From assembly GCA_052326245.1 (NCBI GenBank), contig JBKQQE010000313.1, positions 1 through 19,751 of the forward strand: a DNA stretch of 19,751 nucleotides, written 5' to 3'. Below the pieces are notes generated by a model. It searched no databases, was not told where the DNA came from, and worked only from the letters and a program-made list of their open reading frames with translations. Made by a program: the position numbers and the translations under genes. This DNA is from Xanthobacteraceae bacterium. Its GTDB lineage: Bacteria; Pseudomonadota; Alphaproteobacteria; Rhizobiales; Xanthobacteraceae. This document shows positions 1-16,929 of the stretch, piece after piece (position 1 is the stretch's first letter; each line of letters starts with the position of its first letter).

Positions 1-163
1 GCCTCCAATTCGTCCGGCCGCGGACGGCGGCTCCGGGAAGGTCAACTTCGCATTTCATTTCGAAACCTTAATGCCGCGACCAGCGCGTCGTAATGTGCCG
101 GGCCGCATAGAGGGGGTCATGACGGCGGGCGAATCGCGCGCCAAGTCCCTGGAGAAATGTCCC

Positions 164-1723
164 ATGACCGACCATCTTTCAGACCCCGGCACTTCGCCAT
201 TTCATCGGCTGCTGCGACCGTCATTCTTGTCGGCGCGAAAAATGGCGCTGATGGCGTCCACCGCGATCGTTCTCGGCGCCGCCATCTACGGCTTCAGCCC
301 GTCGCCGGGCAATTTCAATATCGTCGCGAGCGCCGCACACGCCGAGACCGTCAACGGTGCCGCACAACCCGCGGGCTTCGCCGACATCGTCGAGCGGGTG
401 AAACCATCGGTGATCTCGGTGAAGGTCTCGATGAAGCAGAAGGCCGCCGACGTGGCAAACAGGGACGATGACGAGCAGTCCGGCTCGCCGATGGAACACT
501 TCTTTCGCAGATTCGGCGGCCCTGACGGCGTGCCTCAGGGAGGACACGGCCGCGGCGGCGCAATGGTGGGGCAGGGCTCCGGCTTTTTCATCTCGTCCGA
601 TGGCTATGCCGTGACCAACAATCACGTTGTCGACGGTGCCGACAAGGTTGAAGTAACGACCGACGCGGGGAAGGTTTACACAGCGAAAGTGATCGGCACC
701 GACCCGCGCACCGACCTTGCTCTGATCAAGGTCGAGGGCGGGTCCGACTTCCCGGCGGCGAAGCTGTCCGCCGGCAAGGCGCGCGTCGGCGATTGGGTGC
801 TCGCAGTAGGCAACCCGTTTGGCCTTGGCGGAACGGTTACCGCGGGCATCGTTTCGGCGAATGGTCGCGACATCGGCAACGGGCCCTATGACGACTTCAT
901 CCAGATCGACGCGCCGGTCAACAAGGGCAACTCGGGCGGTCCGACTTTCAACACGCAGGGCGAGGTCGTGGGCTTGAACACGGCCATCTATTCGCCGTCT
1001 GGCGGCAGCGTCGGTATCGCGTTCTCGATCCCGGCTCAAACGGTGAAGGAGGTGGTTGCCCAGCTCAAGGACAAGGGGGCCGTCAGCCGGGGCTGGATCG
1101 GCGTGCAAATTCAGCCGGTGACCAGGGATATTGCCGACAGCCTCGGTCTGAAGCAGGCAGAAGGCGCTTTGGTATCTGAACCCCAGGGCGATGGGCCGGC
1201 CGCAAAGGCCGGCGTCGAATCCGGTGATATCATCACCGCGGTAAATGGCCAGTCGATCAAGGATGCCCGGGAACTCGCCCGCATCGTCGGCGGCATGGCG
1301 CCCGGAAGTTCGGTGAAGCTCGACCTGTTGCACAAGGGAAAGGACAAGTCCGTCAGTCTGACGCTTGGTCATCTTCCCGACGCCCAGGAGACGAGAGCCG
1401 ACGCCGATGTGGATCGCAACGGTTTGAAACACGGTCTGGATGTGCCACGGCTTGGCCTGACGGTGGCGCCGGCAGACAAGGTTGCGGGCGCAGGAGAGAA
1501 AGGCGTCGTTGTCACCAACGTCGACCCGAACAGCGCAGCTGCGGAGCGCGGCTTCAAAGAGGGCGACGTGATTTTGGAAGTTGCCGGAAAGACTGTTGCA
1601 AATGCTGGTGAAGTTCGCGCGGCCATCGAAACCGCTCGCACCGACAACAAGACCACCGTCTTGATGCGTGTCCGCTCCGGCGACGCGTCTCACTACGTCG
1701 CCGTGCCGCTCGCAAACGGCTGA
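164..1723 (+). CDS. degP: Periplasmic serine endoprotease of the DegP/HtrA (Do) family, with a protease domain and two PDZ-like regions
   Basis: From ORF 71..1723. Trypsin-like triad motifs are TNNHVV (His), DLALIK (Asp) and GNSGGP (Ser). There is a hydrophobic N-terminal signal/anchor, MALMASTAIVLGAAIYGF. The two C-terminal segments look PDZ-like (GALVSEPQGDGPAAKAGVESGDIITAVNG and GVVVTNVDPNSAAAERGFKEGDVILEVAG). The start is placed at ATG 164 because GGAGAA (151-156) lies 7 nt upstream. ATG 71 remains possible. Confidence 0.9.
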   Translation: MTDHLSDPGTSPFHRLLRPSFLSARKMALMASTAIVLGAAIYGFSPSPGNFNIVASAAHAETVNGAAQPAGFADIVERVKPSVISVKVSMKQKAADVANRDDDEQSGSPMEHFFRRFGGPDGVPQGGHGRGGAMVGQGSGFFISSDGYAVTNNHVVDGADKVEVTTDAGKVYTAKVIGTDPRTDLALIKVEGGSDFPAAKLSAGKARVGDWVLAVGNPFGLGGTVTAGIVSANGRDIGNGPYDDFIQIDAPVNKGNSGGPTFNTQGEVVGLNTAIYSPSGGSVGIAFSIPAQTVKEVVAQLKDKGAVSRGWIGVQIQPVTRDIADSLGLKQAEGALVSEPQGDGPAAKAGVESGDIITAVNGQSIKDARELARIVGGMAPGSSVKLDLLHKGKDKSVSLTLGHLPDAQETRADADVDRNGLKHGLDVPRLGLTVAPADKVAGAGEKGVVVTNVDPNSAAAERGFKEGDVILEVAGKTVANAGEVRAAIETARTDNKTTVLMRVRSGDASHYVAVPLANG

Positions 1724-4431: not shown

Positions 4432-5595
4432 TCAGCGAACGAAAGTCGGAACGATGGTTCCGTACACGTTGGCGAGATGCCGCCCGCCGTCGCTGTCGTA
4501 GAAAAACAACAGCCCGCCAAAGCTGCTGTCCGGATCGCGCATCAGGCTGGTCAGGCGCTCGGCCTCCCAGGCCACGTCCGCGGCGGCGAAGTTGATGGTC
4601 CGGGTCTCACCGGGCTGCAGCGGCGTATTGACGTCGACCTGCAGGCCGGTCTTCGGCAGCAGGTCCTTCGGATAGCCCGGGTCGACATTGGCGACGGCGG
4701 CGGGAACCGAATGCTCGATAAAGCGCAAACTGGCGCTGGTGAATTCCCCAAGCTGCAGCGACTTGTTGAATTTGTTGGTGACCTGGATGGTGATCCGCAT
4801 GGCCCGTCCCGGCACGTCGTAGTTGGCCTTGGTCACCTTGAGGTCGACCACCTGCGGCGGGGTCGGCAGCGGCTCGACCCGCACCCGTCCGCCCTGCAGC
4901 GGGATGGTGTTCGGATATCGGTTCTCGGCCCACAGGAAACCGCCGCTGACAAGCACGATGATGCCGGCCAGCCCTGCCGCGGCAACGATCTGGTCCTGGC
5001 GCGTGATCAGCCCGGCCTCGTTGCCCGCCTTCAGCGCCATGTAGCGCGGCAGCAGCAGCGGCCGCCTGATCCACCACAGCAACCACAGCACCGCGATGAC
5101 AAACCACAGCGCGTGCCAGCTGAACACCGTGCCGAGGCCCCAATCCTCAAGGTTGGCGATATAGGTCCCGTCGATCGTCGTCACCGGCTGCCGGAAATCG
5201 GCGAAATTTCCGGTCACGTCGATCCATTCGCCGGGACCCGGCAGCGGACCGGCCTGATGGATATTGAGCATCGGATGGATGTGCCAGTGGCCGGGAATGC
5301 GGCCCTTGACCACGATCTTGAACTCATAGTCGCGGCCGAGCTGCAGGCCGGTCGACTGGATCGCCGGCACGCCGTCGATATAAGACTCGATGCGGGTCAT
5401 CGCGCCGCCGGGCGAGGCAAGCCCCAGGAAAACCGTGTCGGGCTTGGGCAGGATCTCCGGCCAGTCCTCGAAGATGCGGAATTTGCCGGTGATGGTGATC
5501 TCGTCGTTCACCGCCGCCTTGGTGCCGGAAAACTTCACGTCGTACCAGTGCACGGTGCGCATGCGAAGGAACGGCTCCTGGTTGCGCTCGCCGTG
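4432..5595 (-). other. PmoB/AmoB-like mature region of the fusion ORF (residues 302-688)
   Basis: His302, His406 and His408 have exactly the spacing (+104, +106) of His33/His137/His139 in M. capsulatus PmoB as I recall it. His317 corresponds to His48. The position of His72 is Arg341. Confidence 0.85.
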
Positions 5596-6498
5596 GGCCT
5601 GCGTGGGCATGCTGTACAGAATGCTGGTCAGCAACACCGCCAGCCCGAGCACGACCGTTGCCGGTCGCACCACGGCGCCTTTCGCGGCTGGCGCCGATGC
5701 GCCAGCCGATGCGGGCTTGTCCGACAGCCCCATCCATTTGCCGAGCTTGCTCGGCAGGAACGTGGTGCCGGCCAGCAGCTTGCCGATATGCCACCAAAGA
5801 AAGTACATCAGGATGCACATGAACCCCGAGAAGAAGGCGGACACCACCGCGGAATGGCCGCCGAAGGTGCGCAGCGTGCCGCGCTCGATGATGCGCAGAT
5901 ATTCCGGCATGCTGCTGCGCGGATACACGTAGCCGATCATGTCGCCGACCGTGAGCAGCGACCCGATATGCTCGAGCGGCAACCGGTACGCGGCGATCAT
6001 CGGCCAGTTTCCAGGATAGAACAGCAACGCGAACAGCATGCCGCCGAAAATGCCCGCGAAGATGAAATTGCCGCCGAGCAGCAGCACCAGGTCGAGCGCG
6101 ATGGCGCCGGGCAGCATGGTCCCCGGAAAGATCAGCGTGAAGGGAAACCAGGCCCAGATATGGAAGCCGTGCACGCGAACGATCCATTCGCCCAGCAGCA
6201 GCCCGACGCAGCAGAGCGTGGCGCCGATCGGCAGGCGGAAATAGGTCCAGAGAACGTAGTGAACGGCCGCGGGAAAGGTGATCAGCAGCACCGGGGTGAA
6301 GGTCGGCCAGAATTCCCGGTCCTTCCAGTCGTTCCAGAAATCCCAGTCGCCGATCGTCAGTTCGACATGGATGTGGAACGCCGCCGTCAGCACGATGAAG
6401 ATCGCAGCGGCGACCAGAAAATCGAAGGTCCGCGATACCCGCGCGGCCTTGCCTGCCGGCCACACGCCACGCCACGCCGTCTCCGTGATATTTGCCAC
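4432..6498 (-). CDS. pmoA-pmoB: Copper membrane monooxygenase PmoA-like / PmoB-like fusion protein (single 688-aa ORF)
   Basis: GTG start at 6498, with GGGGGGAA ending 4 nt upstream. The N-terminal ~251 aa carry PmoA/AmoA hallmarks: HIHVELTIGDWDFWNDWKDREFW, LLGEW, MLPGAIALD, FYPGNWP, ERGTLRTFGGH. Residues 302-688 carry PmoB/AmoB hallmarks: HGERNQEPFLRMRTVHWYD, GHWHIHPML, two TM helices, and a C-terminal cupredoxin-like segment, VPGRAMRITIQVTN...LGEFTSASLRF. No stop codon separates the two parts. Confidence 0.9.
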   Translation of the reverse strand: MANITETAWRGVWPAGKAARVSRTFDFLVAAAIFIVLTAAFHIHVELTIGDWDFWNDWKDREFWPTFTPVLLITFPAAVHYVLWTYFRLPIGATLCCVGLLLGEWIVRVHGFHIWAWFPFTLIFPGTMLPGAIALDLVLLLGGNFIFAGIFGGMLFALLFYPGNWPMIAAYRLPLEHIGSLLTVGDMIGYVYPRSSMPEYLRIIERGTLRTFGGHSAVVSAFFSGFMCILMYFLWWHIGKLLAGTTFLPSKLGKWMGLSDKPASAGASAPAAKGAVVRPATVVLGLAVLLTSILYSMPTQAHGERNQEPFLRMRTVHWYDVKFSGTKAAVNDEITITGKFRIFEDWPEILPKPDTVFLGLASPGGAMTRIESYIDGVPAIQSTGLQLGRDYEFKIVVKGRIPGHWHIHPMLNIHQAGPLPGPGEWIDVTGNFADFRQPVTTIDGTYIANLEDWGLGTVFSWHALWFVIAVLWLLWWIRRPLLLPRYMALKAGNEAGLITRQDQIVAAAGLAGIIVLVSGGFLWAENRYPNTIPLQGGRVRVEPLPTPPQVVDLKVTKANYDVPGRAMRITIQVTNKFNKSLQLGEFTSASLRFIEHSVPAAVANVDPGYPKDLLPKTGLQVDVNTPLQPGETRTINFAAADVAWEAERLTSLMRDPDSSFGGLLFFYDSDGGRHLANVYGTIVPTFVR
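5596..5745 (-). other. Fusion junction: basic/Ala-rich linker plus the retained PmoB-type signal-peptide-like hydrophobic segment
   Basis: Residues 252-301 read LGKWMGLSDKPASAGASAPAAKGAVVRPATVVLGLAVLLTSILYSMPTQA and are followed immediately by His302. An in-frame ATG at 5731-5733 (Met256) lacks an obvious SD. The junction T-Q-A|H resembles a signal peptidase I site. Confidence 0.7.
5746..6498 (-). other. PmoA/AmoA-like domain of the fusion ORF (residues 1 to about 251)
   Basis: Aligns by eye along its whole length with my recollection of M. capsulatus PmoA. That includes the C-terminal region (HIGKLLAGTTFLPSK here versus FIGRWFSNERFLQST). Confidence 0.8.
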
Positions 6499-6662
6499 GT
6501 TGTTCCCCCCGGGTCAGCCGCGGTTATTGGTTGTTGCGGCGTCTTGTTATTGCAGCTTCTTGTTGCAGCTTCGCAGTTCCCTGCAGCCGATACCGACCGG
6601 GCCGGAGATTGACGGACGCAATTATGACGTCCGGAATACTCCGGCCGCGGTCGCAGCGGTTG

Positions 6663-7490
6663 TCAGATCGTATCGGCCAGGTGCTCGGTTTCTTCCGTGC
6701 CGTAGATCTTCTTCAACAGCTCGACGATGTTCGGCGATACCTGCATCAGCAGGCCGCCCAGCGCCAGCGCCGACCAGCCGAGCACGACAAAGCCCCAATG
6801 CAGCGGGGCGATGAACAGCTCTTCCATCAGCCAGAAGGCATGTCCCCACTCGTTGAAACCGAGATTCGGCAGAATCAGGAACGGTCCGGTCACGCCGATG
6901 ACGAACGGGACGGAGATCGCTCGGGCAAACTGCGGCAGCCGCGTCGAGGCGTACAGATACGAGCCGACCCCGAGGATGATGTAGAGCGGGATGGTCAGGT
7001 AGAACAGCACGATGTGGCTGGGCGTGAAGCTGGTGTCGCGCACCACCACCTGGTGCCAGGACGCGTCCTCTTCGCCGAAGAAGCTGGCGGTGAAGTAGAC
7101 GGCGAACACGTAGCAGAGGATCCATGCGACCAGGGTGAAGTAGCGCTTGAGTTCGGTCCTGGGCTCGATCAGGTCGAGGTGCCGGTCGCGGGTGAGCCAG
7201 AGATACGACCAGACCACGGCCGCGGCGACCGCGAGAACGGTCAGTTCGGTGTACAGCAGCGTCATCCAGTACTTGTCGAACAGTGGATTTGTGGAGTCCA
7301 TGCCCGCGGACCAGGCGAACGCCTGCTGATAGAGCCTGGCGGCCAAGTAGATCATCGCCAAGCCGCCCATCACCATGAGCGTGATGCCGAGGTTCAGATA
7401 CTTTTCCTTGGCCTTGTCCTTGGCCGCATCCCTGGTGGCGCGGTCGGTCGACACAACACCACTCGCTCCCACGTCCAACGCCTGTGTCAT
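6663..7490 (-). CDS. pmoC: Copper membrane monooxygenase subunit C (PmoC/AmoC-like)
   Basis: 275-aa ORF with ATG at 7490 and GGGAGGG 8 nt upstream. Hallmark motifs are EEDASWHQVVVRDTSFTPSHIVLFY (D142/H146/H159) and NEWGHAFWLMEELFIAPLHWGF (N213/H217/H231). There are multiple TM helices. Confidence 0.92.
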   Translation of the reverse strand: MTQALDVGASGVVSTDRATRDAAKDKAKEKYLNLGITLMVMGGLAMIYLAARLYQQAFAWSAGMDSTNPLFDKYWMTLLYTELTVLAVAAAVVWSYLWLTRDRHLDLIEPRTELKRYFTLVAWILCYVFAVYFTASFFGEEDASWHQVVVRDTSFTPSHIVLFYLTIPLYIILGVGSYLYASTRLPQFARAISVPFVIGVTGPFLILPNLGFNEWGHAFWLMEELFIAPLHWGFVVLGWSALALGGLLMQVSPNIVELLKKIYGTEETEHLADTI

Positions 7491-8372: not shown

Positions 8373-8447
8373 CTAGTGTTTTGAATTTGACATTCGCTTG
8401 GAGAGTTCGCGGCAATACTGAAGCGAATGTCAAATCCACCACACTAG
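8373..8447. repeat. 75-bp CTAG-bounded palindromic intergenic element, copy 2 (REP/MITE-like)
   Basis: CTAGTGTTTTGAATTTGACATTCGCTT pairs with AAGCGAATGTCAAATCCACCACACTAG, with a few mismatches in the outer arm. It has the same length and the same core (ATTTGACATTCGCTT...GAGAG...CGCGGC...CTGAA...GTCAAATCCAC) as copy 1. Its right end overlaps the last codons and the TAG stop (8444-8446) of the copD-fusion gene. Confidence 0.8.
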
Positions 8448-10447
8448 TGGACGTGATTGTCCGGCGCCGGCAATATTTGCGGCTCCGCGTTGAGTTTGTC
8501 CACCTGCTGGAGGAGCCGGTCCGTCGGACTCCAGCCGTTGGGCTCATCGTCGGCAATCCAGCGACCGCGAATGTAGCCGAACCGATCGATCAGGAATTCC
8601 ATGTGGCTTCTCTTCATGCCCAGGCTGCGACCATCGCCACGGTTGACCAGCGTGCGCGACAACAGTCCGTAGCTCTCCCGGATCTCGTCGGCGGCGCCGC
8701 GAACGATCGTCGCGGAGCCGCTCACGCCGGCATCGAGGGCATTGGATATCACCAGGACCACCAGACCGCGGCTTCGCATCCGATCGAGGTCCCGGCTCAG
8801 TTCGCCCATGCGCGCGAGGCTGAGTTGCTGGCCAGGGTCCGGAAACACCAGCAGGACGTTGCTTCGCTCCCGAAAGTCCTTGAGCTCGCGGGCGTTGTCG
8901 TCGTCGCCGTCCAGGTAGAAGTCGGGCGCGCCCAGCCAGGGACGCTCGGAAACGACCGAGGGCGACAGCACGCGGGCCTGAAAGCCCTGGGAAAAAGCCC
9001 GCAGGAAATTGATGATGTCCCATCGGTCCTCATCGCCCAGCACATCCGCGAATCCGGGCATGCCGCTTGGCTGAATTCCGTGCCCCAGCCACCAGTACAT
9101 GTCGCCTGCCGTGTGCAGGGCGGTATGCGGTTCGCTGAGATTCGCCGGCTGCTTCGGCAGCCCCTTCGCCGCAGGCCCATCGCCAAGGCCGCCCGGGCCG
9201 TGGCACGCCGTGCATAGCTGTTCGAAATGCTTCTTTCCTTCGAAGATCGACACCGTCAGGTACGGCACCGTGGACTGGAGATACGTGTCGGGGAAGGCCG
9301 GGACCGTCAGCGACCACAACGCCACTCCCATTCCCGCCATACCTGCGGCAGCGAGCGCTGCCAGCTGTGGCGCCGCCATGCTTCGGCGGCTCCGCACCAC
9401 CCAGGCCGCGGATAGTGCCGCAACCATGGCTCCGCCGACGACCCACAGCGGCGTCGGCCATACGGGCCAGGTCGCGTCGATGGCGAAACGAAACGGCAGC
9501 CACCAATAGGGCTGTTCGTGAGCCGCGGGGTTGGTCTGGGACAATGTGGCGGCGAGGCCGAGGACGATTGTTGCCAGGCCCAGCTCCAGCGCTACCCAGC
9601 GCGCCGCGGCGGCGTATTGTTGCGGTGCGCGCGACACTGTCGTTACAGCCGGCAGGAAGACCCGGCGCATATGGTTGGCGACCAGCAGGATGCCGACCAG
9701 CACCGCGACCTTGCCACAAATCAGCAAGCCGTAGCGTGTCCCCAGCAGATCGCCCTGCGTGCTGATAAATCCGGCGCCGAGCGCCACGCCGGAGACGGCG
9801 ATCACGACCACGCAAACCGTCGCAAGCCGCGAAAAGCGATTGAGCGCCACGGCGGTGTAACAGCGGCGCGCGTCGTTGGCGAACGGGCCGACCGTCAACA
9901 CCAGCCCGATCCAGGCCGGCAAGCCGCCGATCCACGCGCTGACGGCCACCGCATGCATGACCTGGAACGGCATGAGCCAGGCTGCCAGGTCGTCGCCGGC
10001 GGCGTGGCCGGCCAGCGGTCCGGCCGCGGCGACAACGATCGCCAGGATCAGGACCAGCCCCGCGCCCGCGCGCTCCGACCGCGTCCGCTTCGCCTTGGCC
10101 AGAAGGAGCGCGGGCGCGAGCAGGATCAGCACGAGCGAGAGCTTGAGCAGCGCGACACGGCCGTACCGCGTCTGCAACGCAAAGCTCTTCAACCATTCCC
10201 CTTCATCGATCATCCGCGCCAAGGGCAGATCGACGGTCGCGGCGGTCTGAGCGATCAAGCCCGTGACGGTCGCCAGCAAGAAGACCGACACCGCCCAGGG
10301 GAAACTTCTGCTTGCGCGATCGCGCCACGCGCGCAGAACCGGATCCGCTGTCGGGCGACTCAACAGCAGGAACGCCGCGCCGCCGACCAGCCAGGCCAGC
10401 GACAGGTACCCCGCGAGGCGAGCGAGAACCGAGACCAGCTCGGTCAC
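8444..10447 (-). CDS. copD: CopD-family copper membrane protein fused to a c-type cytochrome domain and a Cys-less thioredoxin-fold (AhpC/redoxin-like) domain
   Basis: From ORF 8444..10681. The start is placed at GTG 10447, which overlaps the copC stop as GTGA. The N-terminal ~400 aa are polytopic membrane protein with CopD-like helices (LAGHAAGDD, MHAVAVSAWIGGL). A CxxCH haem motif, CTACH, lies at 9200-9214, with a downstream GMPGF as candidate Met ligand. The C-terminal ~170 aa follow the peroxiredoxin/redoxin pattern (APDFYL..D....L.DFR...VLLVF.P ... VVLVIS ... FLIDRFGYIRGRW), but they contain no cysteine where the active-site Cys would be. Confidence 0.8.
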   Translation of the reverse strand: MTELVSVLARLAGYLSLAWLVGGAAFLLLSRPTADPVLRAWRDRASRSFPWAVSVFLLATVTGLIAQTAATVDLPLARMIDEGEWLKSFALQTRYGRVALLKLSLVLILLAPALLLAKAKRTRSERAGAGLVLILAIVVAAAGPLAGHAAGDDLAAWLMPFQVMHAVAVSAWIGGLPAWIGLVLTVGPFANDARRCYTAVALNRFSRLATVCVVVIAVSGVALGAGFISTQGDLLGTRYGLLICGKVAVLVGILLVANHMRRVFLPAVTTVSRAPQQYAAAARWVALELGLATIVLGLAATLSQTNPAAHEQPYWWLPFRFAIDATWPVWPTPLWVVGGAMVAALSAAWVVRSRRSMAAPQLAALAAAGMAGMGVALWSLTVPAFPDTYLQSTVPYLTVSIFEGKKHFEQLCTACHGPGGLGDGPAAKGLPKQPANLSEPHTALHTAGDMYWWLGHGIQPSGMPGFADVLGDEDRWDIINFLRAFSQGFQARVLSPSVVSERPWLGAPDFYLDGDDDNARELKDFRERSNVLLVFPDPGQQLSLARMGELSRDLDRMRSRGLVVLVISNALDAGVSGSATIVRGAADEIRESYGLLSRTLVNRGDGRSLGMKRSHMEFLIDRFGYIRGRWIADDEPNGWSPTDRLLQQVDKLNAEPQILPAPDNHVH

Positions 10448-10815
10448 GGCGACTTGGCGTCGGTCTTGATGCTGAACTGGTAGCCGTACTCGACCACGTG
10501 TCCGTCCTGCGAGAGAACGCGGTAATGCACGGTAAAGACTCCCGAACCGATGGTCGCGATCGGCGCCTTGACGCATTTCGGGTCGCTGCCCGCCTGCAAC
10601 TTGCCCAGCACGACGGCGGTCCCGTTGGCATCTTCCAGGGTGACCGACGAAAACTTCGCCTCGACCGCCTCGTTGAAGCAAAGATCAAGCGACGGGGGAG
10701 GTTGCGTCAGTACCGCGCGACTCCCGGGCACGGACCTGACCAGCGCTGCATGCGCATGTGCCGAACCCGGCACTGCCAGCGCGATCAGGGCCATGATTGT
10801 CATTTCTCTCTGCAT
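10444..10815 (-). CDS. copC: Periplasmic copper chaperone CopC, with a Cu(II)-type site only
   Basis: From ORF 10444..10827. The start is placed at ATG 10815, and GGGAGGAG lies upstream. Signal peptide ...ALAVPGSAHA|HAALVRSVPG leaves an N-terminal His on the mature protein. The mature protein follows the CopC pattern (SLDLCFNEAV, SSVTLED, FTVHYRVLSQDGHVVEYGYQF), including the D-x-H (DGH) of the Cu(II) site. It contains no Met, so a Met-rich Cu(I) site is absent. Confidence 0.85.
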   Translation of the reverse strand: MQREMTIMALIALAVPGSAHAHAALVRSVPGSRAVLTQPPPSLDLCFNEAVEAKFSSVTLEDANGTAVVLGKLQAGSDPKCVKAPIATIGSGVFTVHYRVLSQDGHVVEYGYQFSIKTDAKSP

Positions 10816-14362: not shown

Positions 14363-15355
14363 TCAGCTCTTCGCGCCAAGCGTGGAGGCGCCGTCCCAAC
14401 TGATCGGAAACAGCCGCCAACCGGTTCGCGCCTGCAGACTCCCCCAGAGTCCCCCGGGCGCCAGCAACATCACGATCATCGCCGTCGCTCCCTGGAAAAT
14501 CAGATACAGATCACCGGCGTCGCGGAACAACTCGCGCAGCGCAAAGTAGATCAAGGTGCCGATTACCGGCCCTTCGAGCGTGCCGACGCCGCCGACGATC
14601 ACGATGAACAGGATCTTGACCTGCCAATCGATATCGAAGCCACCCGAGGGATCCACATACAGCACCGACAGGTAGTAAAGGCCACCTGCCAGGCCGCAGA
14701 TCGCCGCGGAGAGTACGAAGGCGGCGAGTCTGTTGCGGGCGACCGCGATACCGACGCTGGCGGCGCCGTGTTCGTTGTCCCGGATCGCCATCAAGGTGAG
14801 CCCGACCCGGGTTCTGAGCAGCGCAAAGATGCCGATCTGGGTCGCTACGGCCAATGCCAGCGCGAGCCAGAACACGCTGTCGGAAAAGCTTGCGGGGTCG
14901 ATGGCCGAGGCGTTGAGCACGACGCCACGCGACGAGCCGGCCCATTCCCATTGCCCGAACAGCAACCTCAGGCTGTCCGCCAGCACCCAAATGCCGATGG
15001 AGAAATAGGCGTCGCGCAGGCGATGCAGCAGCAGCGCCATCACCAGCGCGGCCAGAATACAGACCAGCGCACCGGCGCCGAGGCTGAGATATGGCGATGC
15101 GCCGAGCGTGTTGACCGTCATGAACAGCGCATAGGCGCCGAGGCCGACAAAGGCGTGATGGCCGAACGACAGCAGCCCGGTATATCCGCACAGCAGATTC
15201 CAGCCCTGGGCCATGGCGAAGACCAGCAGCATTTCCTTGGCCAGTTGACGGTCCACCGGCAGAAACAGCGCGCCAGCGACAAGGCCCGCCATCATTGTCG
15301 CGGTCGGCAGAATGGTTCTGGCGTTCACGTTGATTTCCTTCAGAAGACCGTTCAC
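14363..15355 (-). CDS. Branched-chain amino acid/amide-type ABC transporter permease (LivM-like)
   Basis: This is the C-terminal part of ORF 14363..16240. Typical motifs are GYTGLLSFGHHAFVGLGAY, LMAIRDNEHGAASVGI and GGVGTLEGPVIG. The start is placed at GTG 15355, with GGAGG 5 nt upstream and a GTGA overlap with the upstream stop. ATG 15367 is an alternative. Confidence 0.8.
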   Translation of the reverse strand: MNGLLKEINVNARTILPTATMMAGLVAGALFLPVDRQLAKEMLLVFAMAQGWNLLCGYTGLLSFGHHAFVGLGAYALFMTVNTLGASPYLSLGAGALVCILAALVMALLLHRLRDAYFSIGIWVLADSLRLLFGQWEWAGSSRGVVLNASAIDPASFSDSVFWLALALAVATQIGIFALLRTRVGLTLMAIRDNEHGAASVGIAVARNRLAAFVLSAAICGLAGGLYYLSVLYVDPSGGFDIDWQVKILFIVIVGGVGTLEGPVIGTLIYFALRELFRDAGDLYLIFQGATAMIVMLLAPGGLWGSLQARTGWRLFPISWDGASTLGAKS

Positions 15356-16224
15356 CCGCGCCTCCATGCCAGCCGCACGGAAAGATCCATCTGCCTCGCC
15401 AGCAGGACGACGAAGAATGCGAGGTGACCGAACAGCGGCCCGGAATTGGGATTTATTCTCAACCCGACGACCTGCACGACGCCCAGGAACAATCCTCCGA
15501 GGAAGCAGCCCCGCAGCGAGCCCAGCCCGCCAATGATCACGACCTCGAAGGCGATCAAGAGCCGCTCGGCGCCGGAAAACGGCGAGAACGAGCTGCGCAT
15601 CGCCAGCAGCAGACCCGCGAGCGCCGACAACGTGACCGCCAGTCCCATGGCCGCGCTGTAGACCCTGCGCCGGTTGAAGCCGAGCGTTTCGAGAATTTCG
15701 AAATCGTCGGCGGCGGCGCGGAATGCGCGGCCGATGGTGGTGCGCGTCAGCAGAAAATTGGTCGCTACGAACAGTACGACGGCGGCAGCGAAGATCAGCA
15801 GCGGCAGAACGCCGATCGATACGCCGAAAATGTCCACCCCCGCATCCTGCAACGGCCCGACCTCGATCGAGCGAATGTTGGAGCCGTAGATCTTGACGAG
15901 CAGGTTGCGCAGCACGATCGACAGTCCGATGGTGACGACCATCCCTGGAACCGGGTTCGGTCCGAGCACTCTGTTCAGAAGCGCCGCCTGCAGCAGCCAG
16001 CCGAGTGCAAAGGCGGCGATGGCCACGCAGACGACCACTGCCACCAGCGGCAGCGGCGTCAGCGTCAGAAGCGAAACGCCGAGATAGGCCGCCAGCACGA
16101 TGAACTCGCCATGGGCGATGTTGACGACACGCATGATCCCGAAAGCCAGCGCCAGCCCCAGTCCGAACAAACCGTAAAGACCGCCGACCATCAGGCCGTT
16201 GATGAACGCCTCGACGAAGCTCAT
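15352..16224 (-). CDS. Branched-chain amino acid/amide-type ABC transporter permease (LivH-like)
   Basis: MSFVEAFINGLMVGGLYGLFGLGLALAFGIMRVVNIAHGEF is a typical LivH N-terminus, and IIGGLGSLRG is also present. ATG 16224 overlaps the restored livF-like stop as ATGA. Confidence 0.85.
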   Translation of the reverse strand: MSFVEAFINGLMVGGLYGLFGLGLALAFGIMRVVNIAHGEFIVLAAYLGVSLLTLTPLPLVAVVVCVAIAAFALGWLLQAALLNRVLGPNPVPGMVVTIGLSIVLRNLLVKIYGSNIRSIEVGPLQDAGVDIFGVSIGVLPLLIFAAAVVLFVATNFLLTRTTIGRAFRAAADDFEILETLGFNRRRVYSAAMGLAVTLSALAGLLLAMRSSFSPFSGAERLLIAFEVVIIGGLGSLRGCFLGGLFLGVVQVVGLRINPNSGPLFGHLAFFVVLLARQMDLSVRLAWRRG

Positions 16225-16929
16225 GAACCGCGATCTCCAAAATAGGCGTGCTTGATCTCCTCCAGCGTCACGGCCTGGGCGTTCCCGGCCAGCGTGACCC
16301 GCCCTTTCAGCAGGCAGTAGAGCCGGTGCGAGGAATTGCGCGCGCGTACGGTGTCCTGCTCGACGATCACGATCGATATGCCGCTGTCGCGAATGCCGGC
16401 GAAGCAGGAATATGATGTCGTTGATGACCTTGGGCGCCAGCCCGAGAGACAGCTCGTCGCACAACATCAGCCGCGGATTCGTCAGCAGCGCGCGCCCGAT
16501 CGCGACCATCTGCTGCTGGCCGCCGGAAATGTCCGAAGCCAGCTGACGCCGAAGCTCGCGCATGGCCGGAAACAGCGCATAGACCGACTGCAGCGTCCAT
16601 GGTCCGGGCCTGGCCCGCGCCATCCCCATCAGCAGGTTTTCCTCCACGGTGAGCGAGGAAAACAGCCGTCGGCCTTCCGGAACCAGCGCAACCCCGCGCC
16701 GCGCGATCAGGTCGCAGCGCTGGCGGGTGATGTCCTCTCCTGCAAGGATGATGTTGCCGCGCCGCGTCGGGGTCAGGCCGATGATCGCGCGCAGCAAGGT
16801 CGACTTGCCCGCGCCGTTGGCGCCGATGATGGCGATGGTCTCGCCTTCGTCGACATGGAGCGTCACGCCGAAGGTCGCCTGGAGATCGCCGTAGAAGACG
16901 TCAACGTCCTCAAGCGTGAGCAGGTTCAT
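16221..16929 (-). pseudogene. LivF-like ABC ATPase with an apparent 1-nt frameshift near 16391-16400
   Basis: The N-terminal part has Walker A (GANGAGKST), the signature SGGQQQ and Walker B (LMLCDELSLGL). After ...APKVINDIIFLLRR the frame turns into Arg-rich noise. Shifting by one base restores IRDSGISIVIVEQDTVRARNSSHRLYCLLKGRVTLAGNAQAVTLEEIKHAYFGDRGS*, a normal LivF C-terminus ending at 16221-16223. The span is 709 nt, which is 3n+1. Confidence 0.75.

What the first reader, a model, noticed from the sequence alone, without database searches (positions are those of the whole stretch)
5596..5781. The fusion junction keeps a PmoB-type signal peptide internally, which bears on the N-terminal His copper site
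Seen: the junction reads ...HIGKLLAGTTFLPSKLGKWMGLSDKPASAGASAPAAKGAVVRPATVVLGLAVLLTSILYSMPTQA|HGE. It is a Lys/Arg-containing linker, then a 20-residue hydrophobic segment, then a T-Q-A motif directly before His302. Established: in pMMO the CuB site uses the free amino terminus and side chain of the first mature PmoB residue (His33 in M. capsulatus), which is created by signal peptide cleavage. Inference, case one: if the segment stays as an eighth TM helix, His302 is internal and cannot form the amino-terminal part of that site. Inference, case two: if signal peptidase still cuts after TQA, the fusion is a self-resolving precursor that guarantees 1:1 A:B stoichiometry. The positive linker fits a cytoplasmic location, which is topologically consistent only if the PmoA C-terminus is cytoplasmic.
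Basis: partly seen in the sequence, partly recalled or inferred. Interest (0 to 1): 0.65.

Follow-up and report, generated by a model that had tools for sequence, protein, structure and literature searches.

The report
Internal signal peptide joins fused PmoA–PmoB
In a small clade of uncultured soil bacteria, two subunits of a copper methane/ammonia-type monooxygenase are made as one chain joined by the second subunit's own export signal, which is probably cut afterwards to free the N-terminal histidine that binds copper, and I found no paper describing such a fusion.

Summary
ORF 4432..6498 (-) encodes complete PmoA and PmoB in one 688-aa frame. Residues 259-301 are an 18-aa Ser/Pro/Ala linker, then R278, an 18-residue apolar core and P-T-Q-A directly before His302. 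His302 aligns with mature residue 1 of solved PmoB chains.

The fusion is real. Ten distinct sequences from independent assemblies carry it, and they form one clade (100/99 support) sister to unfused relatives whose PmoA ends ...KWMGL-stop. All linker indels are in frame. dN/dS is 0.07-0.09 in the domains, 0.64 in the linker and 0.23 in the signal segment.

The segment is the ancestral PmoB signal peptide, with dimensions inside the range of 113 ordinary PmoB signal peptides. Ala is invariant at -1, and -3 is T, S or A. Published topology puts the PmoA C-terminus in the cytoplasm, so export works.

My best reading (about 0.65) is an FbcH-like polyprotein cut by signal peptidase I. The same genome encodes a fused cytochrome b-c1. 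Cleavage would leave the helix on PmoA, which fits its unusually slow evolution. An uncleaved chain (about 0.28) is not excluded.

The scan has noted internal-signal polyproteins for other protein pairs, but no other PmoA-PmoB fusion.

The parts
6663..7490 (-). pmoC-like gene (275 aa), immediately upstream of the fused gene on the same strand
   Evidence: Pfam AmoC, E 2e-99
4432..6498 (-). Fused pmoA-pmoB ORF, 688 aa plus stop, GTG start
   Evidence: It is the only Monooxygenase_B match in the 5.56-Mb MAG.
5725..6498 (-). PmoA part, residues 1-258. It ends ...KWMGL, exactly where unfused sister PmoA proteins end.
   Evidence: Pfam AMO 16-248. Sister PmoA C-termini end ...KWMGL*. dN/dS 0.066.
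5722..5724 (-). Ser259 codon TCG at the position of the pmoA stop codon of unfused relatives (TAG or TGA)
   Evidence: DNA alignment. Fused sequences have TCG in 9 of 10 and GCC in L029.
5671..5724 (-). Linker, residues 259-276 (SDKPASAGASAPAAKGAV). It derives from the former intergenic region plus the start of the signal peptide, and is predicted cytoplasmic and disordered.
   Evidence: Length is 14-21 aa across the clade and all indels are multiples of 3. Pairwise identity 0.44, dN/dS 0.64. AF2 pLDDT below 50 for residues 257-278.
5596..5670 (-). Internal signal-peptide-like segment, residues 277-301: n-region R278 (5665..5667), apolar core A280-M297 (5608..5661), c-region P298-T299-Q300-A301 (5596..5607)
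   Evidence: Homologous to the sister-clade signal peptide. Its features lie within the family range. Identity 0.835, dN/dS 0.23. AF2 predicts a helix at 280-295.
5593..5595 (-). His302, the predicted first residue of mature PmoB and a CuB ligand (equivalent to M. capsulatus His33)
   Evidence: Aligns with residue 1 of mature PDB chains. Invariant in all fused sequences and in the 113 unfused homologues whose N-terminal motif was found.
4435..5595 (-). Mature PmoB part, residues 302-688: N-terminal cupredoxin domain, two TM helices (about 455-477 and 500-527), C-terminal cupredoxin domain. The other CuB ligands are H406 (5281..5283) and H408 (5275..5277).
   Evidence: Pfam Monooxygenase_B 303-686, PDB alignments, AF2, dN/dS 0.094

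Best explanation
The junction is the ancestral Sec-type signal peptide of PmoB. It became internal when the pmoA stop codon was lost (TAG/TGA to TCG) and the short intergenic region came into frame.

Proposed mechanism. PmoA inserts into the membrane with its C-terminus in the cytoplasm. The K/R-bearing, disordered linker stays cytoplasmic. The conserved R278 plus the 18-residue apolar core then inserts N-in/C-out, like a signal peptide, and starts Sec translocation of the PmoB N-terminal cupredoxin domain into the periplasm. Signal peptidase I most likely cuts after P-T-Q-A301.

That cut yields (i) mature PmoB beginning with His302, whose free amino group and imidazole can form the histidine-brace-like CuB site with H406 and H408, and (ii) PmoA carrying a C-terminal linker and one extra membrane helix. 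This would be a self-resolving polyprotein of the Bradyrhizobium FbcH (cytochrome b-c1) type.

Shown: the fusion, its single origin, purifying selection, homology of the segment to a signal peptide, preservation of the -3/-1 site, and topological compatibility. Inferred: the cleavage itself, the persistence of the helix on PmoA, and any stoichiometric benefit.
For: 1. The fusion is real and selected. There are 10 distinct fused sequences from independent assemblies (JGI soil/peat metagenomes, Chersky MAGs, a Microflora Danica MAG with a 230-kb contig). They are monophyletic at 100/99 and sister to unfused P0006-P0010. Linker indels are always in frame. dN/dS is 0.066 for PmoA and 0.094 for PmoB.

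2. Origin. Sister pmoA genes end ...KWMGL-TAG/TGA, then 13-56 nt, then pmoB with a normal signal peptide ending P-A-x-A|HGERNQ.

3. The segment still has the dimensions of a cleavable signal peptide. The distance from the last K/R to the site is 23 residues, against a family median of 21 (10th-90th percentile 17-26). The apolar run is 18 against a median of 15 (90th percentile 19). The c-region is 4 against a median of 5 (n=113). At -1, Ala is invariant in 10 of 10 fused sequences (family: A 111, G 2). At -3 the fused clade has only T, S or A. At -2 it has Q or H. Pro is invariant at -4, and the n-region charge is kept, including one R-to-K change. The adjacent linker drifts almost neutrally, so the site had time to decay and did not.

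4. Topology. The PmoA C-terminus is cytosolic according to roGFP data, most crystal structures and cryo-EM (PMC10504283). In this protein there are 5 K/R in residues 235-275 and 5 K/R in the PmoB inter-helix loop.

5. All three CuB ligands are conserved (H302, H406, H408). The N-terminus of PmoB is a copper ligand in solved pMMO.

6. Precedent in the same cell. The MAG encodes a 687-aa cytochrome b + c1 single ORF with an internal signal-like segment. In B. japonicum this FbcH precursor is processed into two proteins (Thony-Meyer et al. 1991, PMID 1647023; content from my own knowledge, because the paper is not held). Three S26 signal peptidase I homologues are present.

7. There is no conserved internal start codon or Shine-Dalgarno sequence, so PmoB must be made as part of the fusion.
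Against: Cleavage is not demonstrated by anything here.

Thr or Ser at -3 is rare in this family (T in 1 of 113; A or V in 110 of 113). By my own knowledge of SPase I specificity it is acceptable.

The apolar core (18 residues) is at the long end of the family range and the c-region (4 residues) is short. Both shift slightly towards a signal-anchor.

The segment evolves more slowly than ordinary signal peptides of the family. Identity is 0.84 against 0.52 at similar mature-domain divergence (5 disjoint fused pairs against 30 disjoint unfused pairs, one-sided Mann-Whitney p about 1e-5, although the fused pairs share one clade). This fits a permanent structural helix. It is compatible with cleavage only because the helix stays on PmoA.

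CuB is not universally required: verrucomicrobial PmoB lacks it, and CuB mutants of a mycobacterial HMO keep activity (PMC13058606). Loss of the amino-terminal ligand could therefore be tolerated.
Confidence: 0.65

Rival explanations
1. The segment is no longer cleaved. It acts as a permanent membrane helix that tethers PmoB to PmoA in a roughly 75-kDa single chain. His302 is then internal, so CuB would be held by three imidazoles without the amino-terminal nitrogen, or would be altered or empty. Catalysis would rest on the PmoC copper sites.
For: The helix is more conserved than ordinary signal peptides of the family (0.84 against 0.52), with dN/dS 0.23 against 0.64 in the linker. The apolar core is at the long end of the range, the c-region is short, and the fused clade shifted from the family-typical A/V at -3 to T/S. 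About six non-helical residues (296-301) lie between the helix end and His302 in the AF2 model, which could plausibly bridge to a site near the membrane surface (inference). CuB is dispensable in some CuMMOs.
Against: The -1 Ala, the small -3 residue, the -4 Pro and the n-region charge are all preserved beside a nearly neutral linker, and only SPase-compatible substitutions are seen. The dimensions still lie inside the range of cleaved family signal peptides. All three CuB histidines are invariant. The same genome relies on an FbcH-type fusion that is processed in Bradyrhizobium. The slower evolution is equally explained if the helix persists on PmoA after cleavage.
Confidence: 0.28
2. PmoB is, also or instead, translated separately from an internal GTG start in the linker (for example V276/V277 in this window). 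That would give an ordinary precursor M-(V)-R-P-A-T... with a normal N-terminal signal peptide, so the fusion protein would be a minor or irrelevant product.
For: In-frame GTG codons lie just before R278 in the window and in most fused sequences.
Against: L027 and L031 have no in-frame ATG, GTG or TTG between the PmoA end and the K/R of the n-region. No Shine-Dalgarno-like motif is conserved upstream, whereas the sister loci have GGAGG/GAGGG before pmoB. Strict in-frame conservation of a freely varying linker is hard to explain if the read-through product did not matter.
Confidence: 0.05
3. The fusion is an assembly or sequencing artefact (a lost stop codon or a frameshift), or a decaying pseudogene.
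For: The window comes from a fragmented MAG of 738 contigs. Two other apparent A-B read-throughs in the 50% representative library (P0136, P0157) look like frameshift artefacts.
Against: Ten distinct sequences from different projects and sequencing platforms share the junction. Their linkers differ by whole codons, the clade is monophyletic, and purifying selection is strong on both halves.
Confidence: 0.02

Closest known systems
Canonical pmoCAB/amoCAB copper membrane monooxygenases (e.g. Methylococcus capsulatus Bath pMMO, PDB 3RGB/7S4H; Nitrosomonas europaea AMO, PDB 9CL6)
   Same: Same three subunit families and the same C-A-B gene order. The PmoB part scores 399 bits to M. capsulatus PmoB and the PmoA part 282 bits to its PmoA. 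The CuB ligands His302/H406/H408 align with His33/137/139. The PmoB signal peptide ends small-x-Ala directly before His.
   Different: In those enzymes A and B are separate genes and polypeptides, and the PmoB signal peptide is N-terminal and discarded. Here they form one ORF and the signal peptide is internal, tethered to PmoA. The substrate of this clade is unknown.
Unfused sister clade of the same CuMMO lineage (P0006-P0010; e.g. the Xanthobacteraceae MAG contig DASPWA010000670, locus L021, and JGI locus L019)
   Same: 72-77% identical in PmoB and 78-81% in PmoA. PmoA has the same ...KWMGL C-terminus. The operon context is the same, with copC and copD-cytochrome c genes.
   Different: There is a stop codon after KWMGL, a 34-56 nt spacer with a Shine-Dalgarno sequence, and a separate pmoB not in frame with pmoA. 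The signal peptide c-region is QPRPAxA rather than SMPTQA.
Bradyrhizobium japonicum FbcH, the cytochrome b-c1 polyprotein (Thony-Meyer, James and Hennecke 1991, PNAS 88:5001, PMID 1647023)
   Same: A polytopic membrane protein with a cytoplasmic C-terminus is fused through an internal signal peptide to a periplasm-facing partner of the same complex. The same MAG encodes such a 687-aa FbcH-type ORF, whose junction dimensions are similar (25 against 23 residues from the last K/R to the putative site).
   Different: The protein families are unrelated. Processing of FbcH is experimentally established (my knowledge of the paper, which is not held here), whereas processing of PmoAB is not. For PmoB the new N-terminus is itself a metal ligand, which is not the case for cytochrome c1.
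Engineered pMMO polyprotein with 2A self-cleaving peptides expressed in plants (PMC10504283)
   Same: The aim is co-expression of pMMO subunits from one chain with later separation, and the paper explicitly wants to preserve the native PmoB N-terminus as a copper ligand.
   Different: That construct is synthetic, uses ribosomal skipping, and replaces the PmoB signal peptide. The fusion here is natural and uses PmoB's own signal peptide.
Histidine brace of lytic polysaccharide monooxygenases
   Same: An N-terminal His created by signal-peptide removal binds Cu through its amino group and imidazole.
   Different: LPMOs are soluble secreted enzymes with N-terminal signal peptides. CuB in CuMMOs has a third His, and its catalytic role is disputed.

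Membership tests
CuMMO subunit A (PmoA/AmoA, Pfam PF02461) | Full-length match to the family model above its curated cut-off | tested here: met
   PF02461 scores 320.9 bits against a cut-off of 27.5, covering residues 16-248 and model positions 5-237 of 238. NF041557 AmoA_BACT scores 331.9 against 290.
CuMMO subunit B (PmoB/AmoB, Pfam PF04744) | Full-length match to the family model above its curated cut-off | tested here: met
   PF04744 scores 478.3 bits against a cut-off of 22.7, covering residues 303-686 and model positions 1-380 of 380. NF041640 scores 541.3 against 336.
CuMMO subunit B (PmoB/AmoB, Pfam PF04744) | CuB ligand set: the first mature His plus the HxH pair | tested here: met
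   H302, H406 and H408 align with the N-terminal His and the WHVH motif of M. capsulatus PmoB. They are invariant in the fused clade.
CuMMO operon | pmoC-pmoA-pmoB on one strand as separate genes | tested here: not met
   The order C-A-B is kept (6663..7490, then 4432..6498), but A and B are one ORF without a stop codon. This is the variant feature.
Sec-type signal peptide cleaved by signal peptidase I | Positively charged n-region, hydrophobic h-region, and a c-region with small uncharged residues at -3 and -1 | tested here: met
   R278 (K or R in 10 of 10 sequences). 18-residue apolar core. P-T-Q-A with -3 T/S/A and -1 A in 10 of 10. All dimensions lie within the range of 113 family signal peptides.
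Sec-type signal peptide cleaved by signal peptidase I | Located at the N-terminus of the precursor | tested here: not met
   The segment is at residues 277-301 of 688, after the complete PmoA.
Sec-type signal peptide cleaved by signal peptidase I | Actual endoproteolytic removal | not testable with these tools
   This needs protein chemistry. AF2 confidence is uninformative: the helix scores pLDDT 77 then 65 in the fusion, against 90 then 70 for the genuine signal peptide of unfused P0008.
FbcH-type membrane polyprotein resolved at an internal signal peptide | The upstream polytopic partner ends in the cytoplasm, so the signal segment can insert N-in/C-out | tested here: met
   Literature: the PmoA C-terminus is cytosolic (PMC10504283). 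Positive-inside count: 5 K/R in residues 235-275.
FbcH-type membrane polyprotein resolved at an internal signal peptide | Two mature proteins are produced from one gene | not testable with these tools

The most novel reading that the evidence does not exclude
The chain is not cleaved. A CuMMO under strong purifying selection would then operate with His302 internal, without the amino-terminal nitrogen of the CuB histidine brace, and with PmoB permanently tethered to PmoA by a seventh helix. That would be a natural experiment showing that the free N-terminus at CuB is dispensable for a working enzyme. It would also provide a ready-made single-chain A-B scaffold.
Probability: 0.28. Interest if true: 0.8.

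Novelty: new variant of a known kind. Interest (0 to 1): 0.6.

Why it matters
The role of the PmoB CuB site, and of its N-terminal histidine, is one of the long-running arguments about how pMMO and AMO work. Recombinant expression of these enzymes has been a persistent obstacle.

A naturally fused PmoA-PmoB gives a direct test either way. If it is cut, it shows that a CuMMO can be assembled from a self-resolving precursor that delivers A and B together to the same translocon, which is a design that engineers could copy. If it is not cut, it shows that an active-looking, strongly conserved CuMMO lives without the amino-terminal copper ligand.

Both outcomes can be read from a single blot or a single N-terminal sequence.

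The case also adds a metalloenzyme to the short list of bacterial membrane polyproteins resolved at internal signal peptides. Here the cut would create a metal ligand.

Tried and rejected
1. AlphaFold2 as a discriminator. The fused protein folds well (mean pLDDT 82.6). The linker 257-278 scores below 50 and the helix 280-295 scores about 77 falling to 65. The control, unfused P0008, gives its genuine cleaved signal peptide an equal or higher pLDDT (90 then 70). The model therefore says nothing about cleavage.

2. Internal re-initiation. I scanned the linker DNA of all fused loci. No start codon or Shine-Dalgarno sequence is conserved, so I rejected this as the main route.

3. Independent A-B fusions elsewhere. 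phmmer against 1.84 billion representatives gave only two fragments that span the junction, P0136 and P0157. Both contain segments that lose homology in a way typical of frameshifts, so I did not count them. L040, which looked like a 75%-identical full-length match, is an unfused relative with frameshifts.

4. Literature. Searches for pmoA/pmoB/fused, amoA/amoB/fusion, 'copper membrane monooxygenase' with 'gene fusion', and Bradyrhizobium with CuMMO found no description of a natural A-B fusion. The 1991 FbcH paper and a 2005 follow-up are not held. Two fbcH keyword searches were unproductive.

6. Same-family genomes. None of 400 sampled genomes of the MAG's family had a homologue, so no in-family comparison was possible.

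7. Lipoprotein or Tat signal. There is no Cys at +1 and no twin-arginine motif, so I rejected both by inspection.
Full report
**What is in the sequence**

The window is one whole 19.75-kb contig (C313) of a 5.56-Mb metagenome-assembled genome with 738 contigs. On the minus strand, ORF 4432..6498 translates into a 688-residue protein.

- Pfam finds a full-length AMO/PmoA domain at residues 16-248 and a full-length Monooxygenase_B/PmoB domain at 303-686 in the same frame. NCBIfam's AmoA_BACT and AmoB_BACT models both pass their cut-offs.
- A pmoC gene lies directly upstream at 6663..7490.
- It is the only PmoB match in the genome.

PmoA ends ...KWMGL258. Then come S259 to V276 (SDKPASAGASAPAAKGAV), V277-R278-P279, an 18-residue apolar core A280-M297, and P298-T299-Q300-A301, followed by His302-GERNQ.

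phmmer against PDB sequences aligns His302 with residue 1 of the mature PmoB/AmoB chains. It aligns residues 286-301 with the signal-peptide portion of the precursor-numbered chains. H406 and H408 fall on the conserved HxH of the CuB site.

**The fusion is real, arose once and is under selection**

- The protein search found two fused clusters, P0004 and P0005. All other close relatives are PmoB-only proteins of 410-445 aa.
- Scans of genome and metagenome contigs added further fused loci: L004/L005 (two MAGs of the 'Chersky' set, one labelled Bradyrhizobium sp.), L006 (a Microflora Danica MAG on a 230-kb contig) and L026-L032 (JGI metagenomes). Every other locus has separate pmoA and pmoB.
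- This gives ten distinct fused sequences, 84-92% identical to the window.
- In a maximum-likelihood tree of mature PmoB they form one clade (100/99 support), sister to the unfused group P0006-P0010.

In four unfused relatives (three from that sister group plus the next outgroup, P0011), PmoA ends ...KWMGL followed by TAG or TGA. A 13-56 nt spacer with a Shine-Dalgarno sequence follows, then pmoB with an ordinary signal peptide ending P-A-x-A|HGERNQ.

The DNA alignment puts the fused clade's TCG (Ser259; GCC in L029) on that stop codon. In none of the four loci is pmoB in frame with pmoA: the distance from the first base of the stop codon to the pmoB start is 59, 38, 37 or 16 nt. Stop loss was therefore accompanied by at least one frame-restoring indel. 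That last step is inference.

Within the fused clade the linker varies from 14 to 21 residues, always by whole codons, and is barely conserved (pairwise identity 0.44, dN/dS 0.64). PmoA (dN/dS 0.066) and mature PmoB (0.094) are under strong purifying selection. An assembly artefact or pseudogene is therefore excluded for practical purposes.

**What the junction segment is**

It is the old PmoB signal peptide. I took 113 unfused homologues whose signal peptide can be delimited by the conserved N-terminal HGE motif.

| Feature | Unfused family (n=113) | Fused clade |
|---|---|---|
| Residue at -1 | Ala 111, Gly 2 | Ala in 10 of 10 |
| Residue at -3 | A 86, V 24, L 2, T 1 | T 8, S 1, A 1 |
| Residue at -2 | varied | Q or H |
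| Residue at -4 | Pro is the commonest | Pro in 10 of 10 |
| Last K/R to the site | median 21 (10th-90th percentile 17-26) | 23 |
| Longest apolar run | median 15 (90th percentile 19) | 18 |
| c-region length | median 5 | 4 |

The fused clade also keeps one basic residue before the core in all ten sequences, R in nine and K in one.

The segment therefore still has the anatomy of a cleavable Sec signal peptide, and every substitution seen at the site is compatible with signal peptidase I. It sits at the long-core, short-c-region end of the range, and the -3 residue has moved from the family's usual A or V to T or S.

**Topology**

PMC10504283 reports that PmoA has both termini on the cytosolic side. 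Its evidence is redox-GFP fusions, the crystal structures of M. capsulatus, Methylocystis sp. M and M. alcaliphilum pMMO, and the cryo-EM structures. Only the older 3CHX model differs, and the authors attribute that to a mis-modelled loop.

In this protein the positive-inside rule agrees:

- 4 K/R before helix 1;
- 5 K/R in residues 235-275, which cover the PmoA tail and the linker;
- 5 K/R in the loop between the two PmoB helices.

So the order cytoplasmic tail, cytoplasmic linker, N-in/C-out helix, periplasmic cupredoxin domain is self-consistent. The helix would be the seventh of the PmoA part, not the eighth.

**Cleaved or not**

Nothing available here measures cleavage, so this is a weighing of evidence.

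For cleavage:

- The site is preserved next to a linker that drifts almost neutrally.
- The three CuB histidines are invariant, and the free amino terminus of the first one is a copper ligand in solved enzymes.
- The dimensions lie inside the cleaved range.
- There is a direct precedent in the same organism. Contig C177 encodes a 687-aa single ORF with cytochrome b and cytochrome c1 domains, joined by ...KSGKVRAVASVAAVLGLAGLLLVGGATSSRA-EEDTPP. This is the FbcH arrangement, which in Bradyrhizobium japonicum is processed into two proteins at its internal signal peptide. The reference is Thony-Meyer et al. 1991, confirmed in a reference list. Its content is from my own knowledge, because the paper is not held.
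- Three S26 signal peptidase homologues are present.

Against cleavage:

- The -3 residue has shifted to T or S.
- The geometry is slightly anchor-like.
- CuB is dispensable in some CuMMOs.

One further observation matters. At similar mature-domain divergence, the last 25 residues before His are 84% identical in five disjoint fused pairs but only 52% identical in 30 disjoint unfused pairs (the all-pairs version is). The helix is thus more constrained than a throw-away signal peptide.

If the chain is cut after A301, the 'signal peptide' is not released. It remains covalently attached to PmoA as a C-terminal extra helix, and so is part of a mature subunit in either scenario.

I put cleavage at about 0.65 and a permanently uncleaved chain at about 0.28.

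**Other rivals**

Separate translation of PmoB from an internal GTG is unlikely. Two fused sequences (L027, L031) have no in-frame start codon before the n-region charge, and no Shine-Dalgarno sequence is conserved.

AlphaFold2 was uninformative. In the fusion the linker is disordered (pLDDT below 50) and the helix has pLDDT 77 falling to 65. The genuine signal peptide of the unfused sister P0008 scores as high or higher.

**Comparison with what is known**

The enzyme is a member of the CuMMO family by every sequence criterion. It departs from the family's defining gene organisation in having A and B in one polypeptide.

I found no description of a natural PmoA-PmoB or AmoA-AmoB fusion.

- Full-text searches gave nothing relevant.
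- The main evolutionary survey of CuMMOs does not contain the words 'fused', 'fusion' or 'signal peptide'.
- A phmmer scan of 1.84 billion representative proteins produced only two junction-spanning fragments outside this clade, both with the look of frameshift artefacts.

As far as these searches reach, the robust fusion is confined to this one shallow clade.

Mechanistically the closest analogue is FbcH. The scan's own earlier notes (unchecked AI notes) list internal-signal polyproteins for other protein pairs in other phyla. The principle is therefore not unique, but no other PmoA-PmoB fusion was on record in the scan. What sets this case apart is that the predicted cut would create a metal ligand.

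**Limits**

- The substrate of this CuMMO lineage is unknown.
- None of 400 sampled genomes of the MAG's own family has a homologue, which suggests patchy, probably horizontal, distribution.

Noticed in passing
G000 contig C177, locus L068:166-2229 (+): The same MAG encodes a 687-aa FbcH-type fusion of cytochrome b (Pfam Cytochrome_B, Cytochrom_B_C) and cytochrome c1 (Cytochrom_C1). It has an internal signal-peptide-like segment...KVRAVASVAAVLGLAGLLLVGGATSSRA|EEDTPP.
   Followed up: partly
window 8444..10681 (-): A 745-aa ORF combines a CopD membrane domain with a c-type cytochrome domain. The unfused sister loci carry the same CopD + cytochrome c protein after copC (L019, 659 aa), so this second fusion is older and more widespread than the PmoAB one.
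   Followed up: partly
window 15352..16929 (-) and 14363..16240 (-): These are branched-chain amino-acid ABC transporter genes in which an ABC_tran ATPase domain and a BPD_transp_2 permease domain lie in one 525-aa ORF. A second, 625-aa ORF has the permease domain only in its C-terminal half.
   Followed up: no
proteins P0195, P0221, P0230: These proteins have both PmoB cupredoxin domains but lack the two TM helices, the N-terminal His and the HxH motif. They are fused behind unrelated N-terminal regions, which look ankyrin-like or caspase-like by eye. They appear to be soluble, PmoB-derived domains recruited elsewhere.
   Followed up: no
proteins P0202 and P0153: P0202 (514 aa) reads as a PmoC-PmoA single chain. 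P0153 (985 aa) is a PmoA domain behind a 670-aa unrelated N-terminal region, followed by one extra C-terminal hydrophobic helix. I did not check either for frameshift artefacts.
   Followed up: no
loci L004 and L005: Two nearly identical 8.65-kb contigs carrying the fused operon are deposited in two MAGs of the same study. One is labelled Candidatus Sulfotelmatobacter (Acidobacteriota) and the other Bradyrhizobium sp. At least one binning assignment is probably wrong.
   Followed up: no
window 4432..7490 compared with the MAG's own family: None of 400 sampled genomes of the same family, including 8 of the same genus, has a PmoAB homologue at E<=1e-30. This fits horizontal acquisition of the CuMMO cluster.
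   Followed up: no
window 2..1723 (+): A DegP/HtrA-type periplasmic serine protease (Trypsin_2 plus two PDZ domains) lies at the contig start.
   Followed up: no
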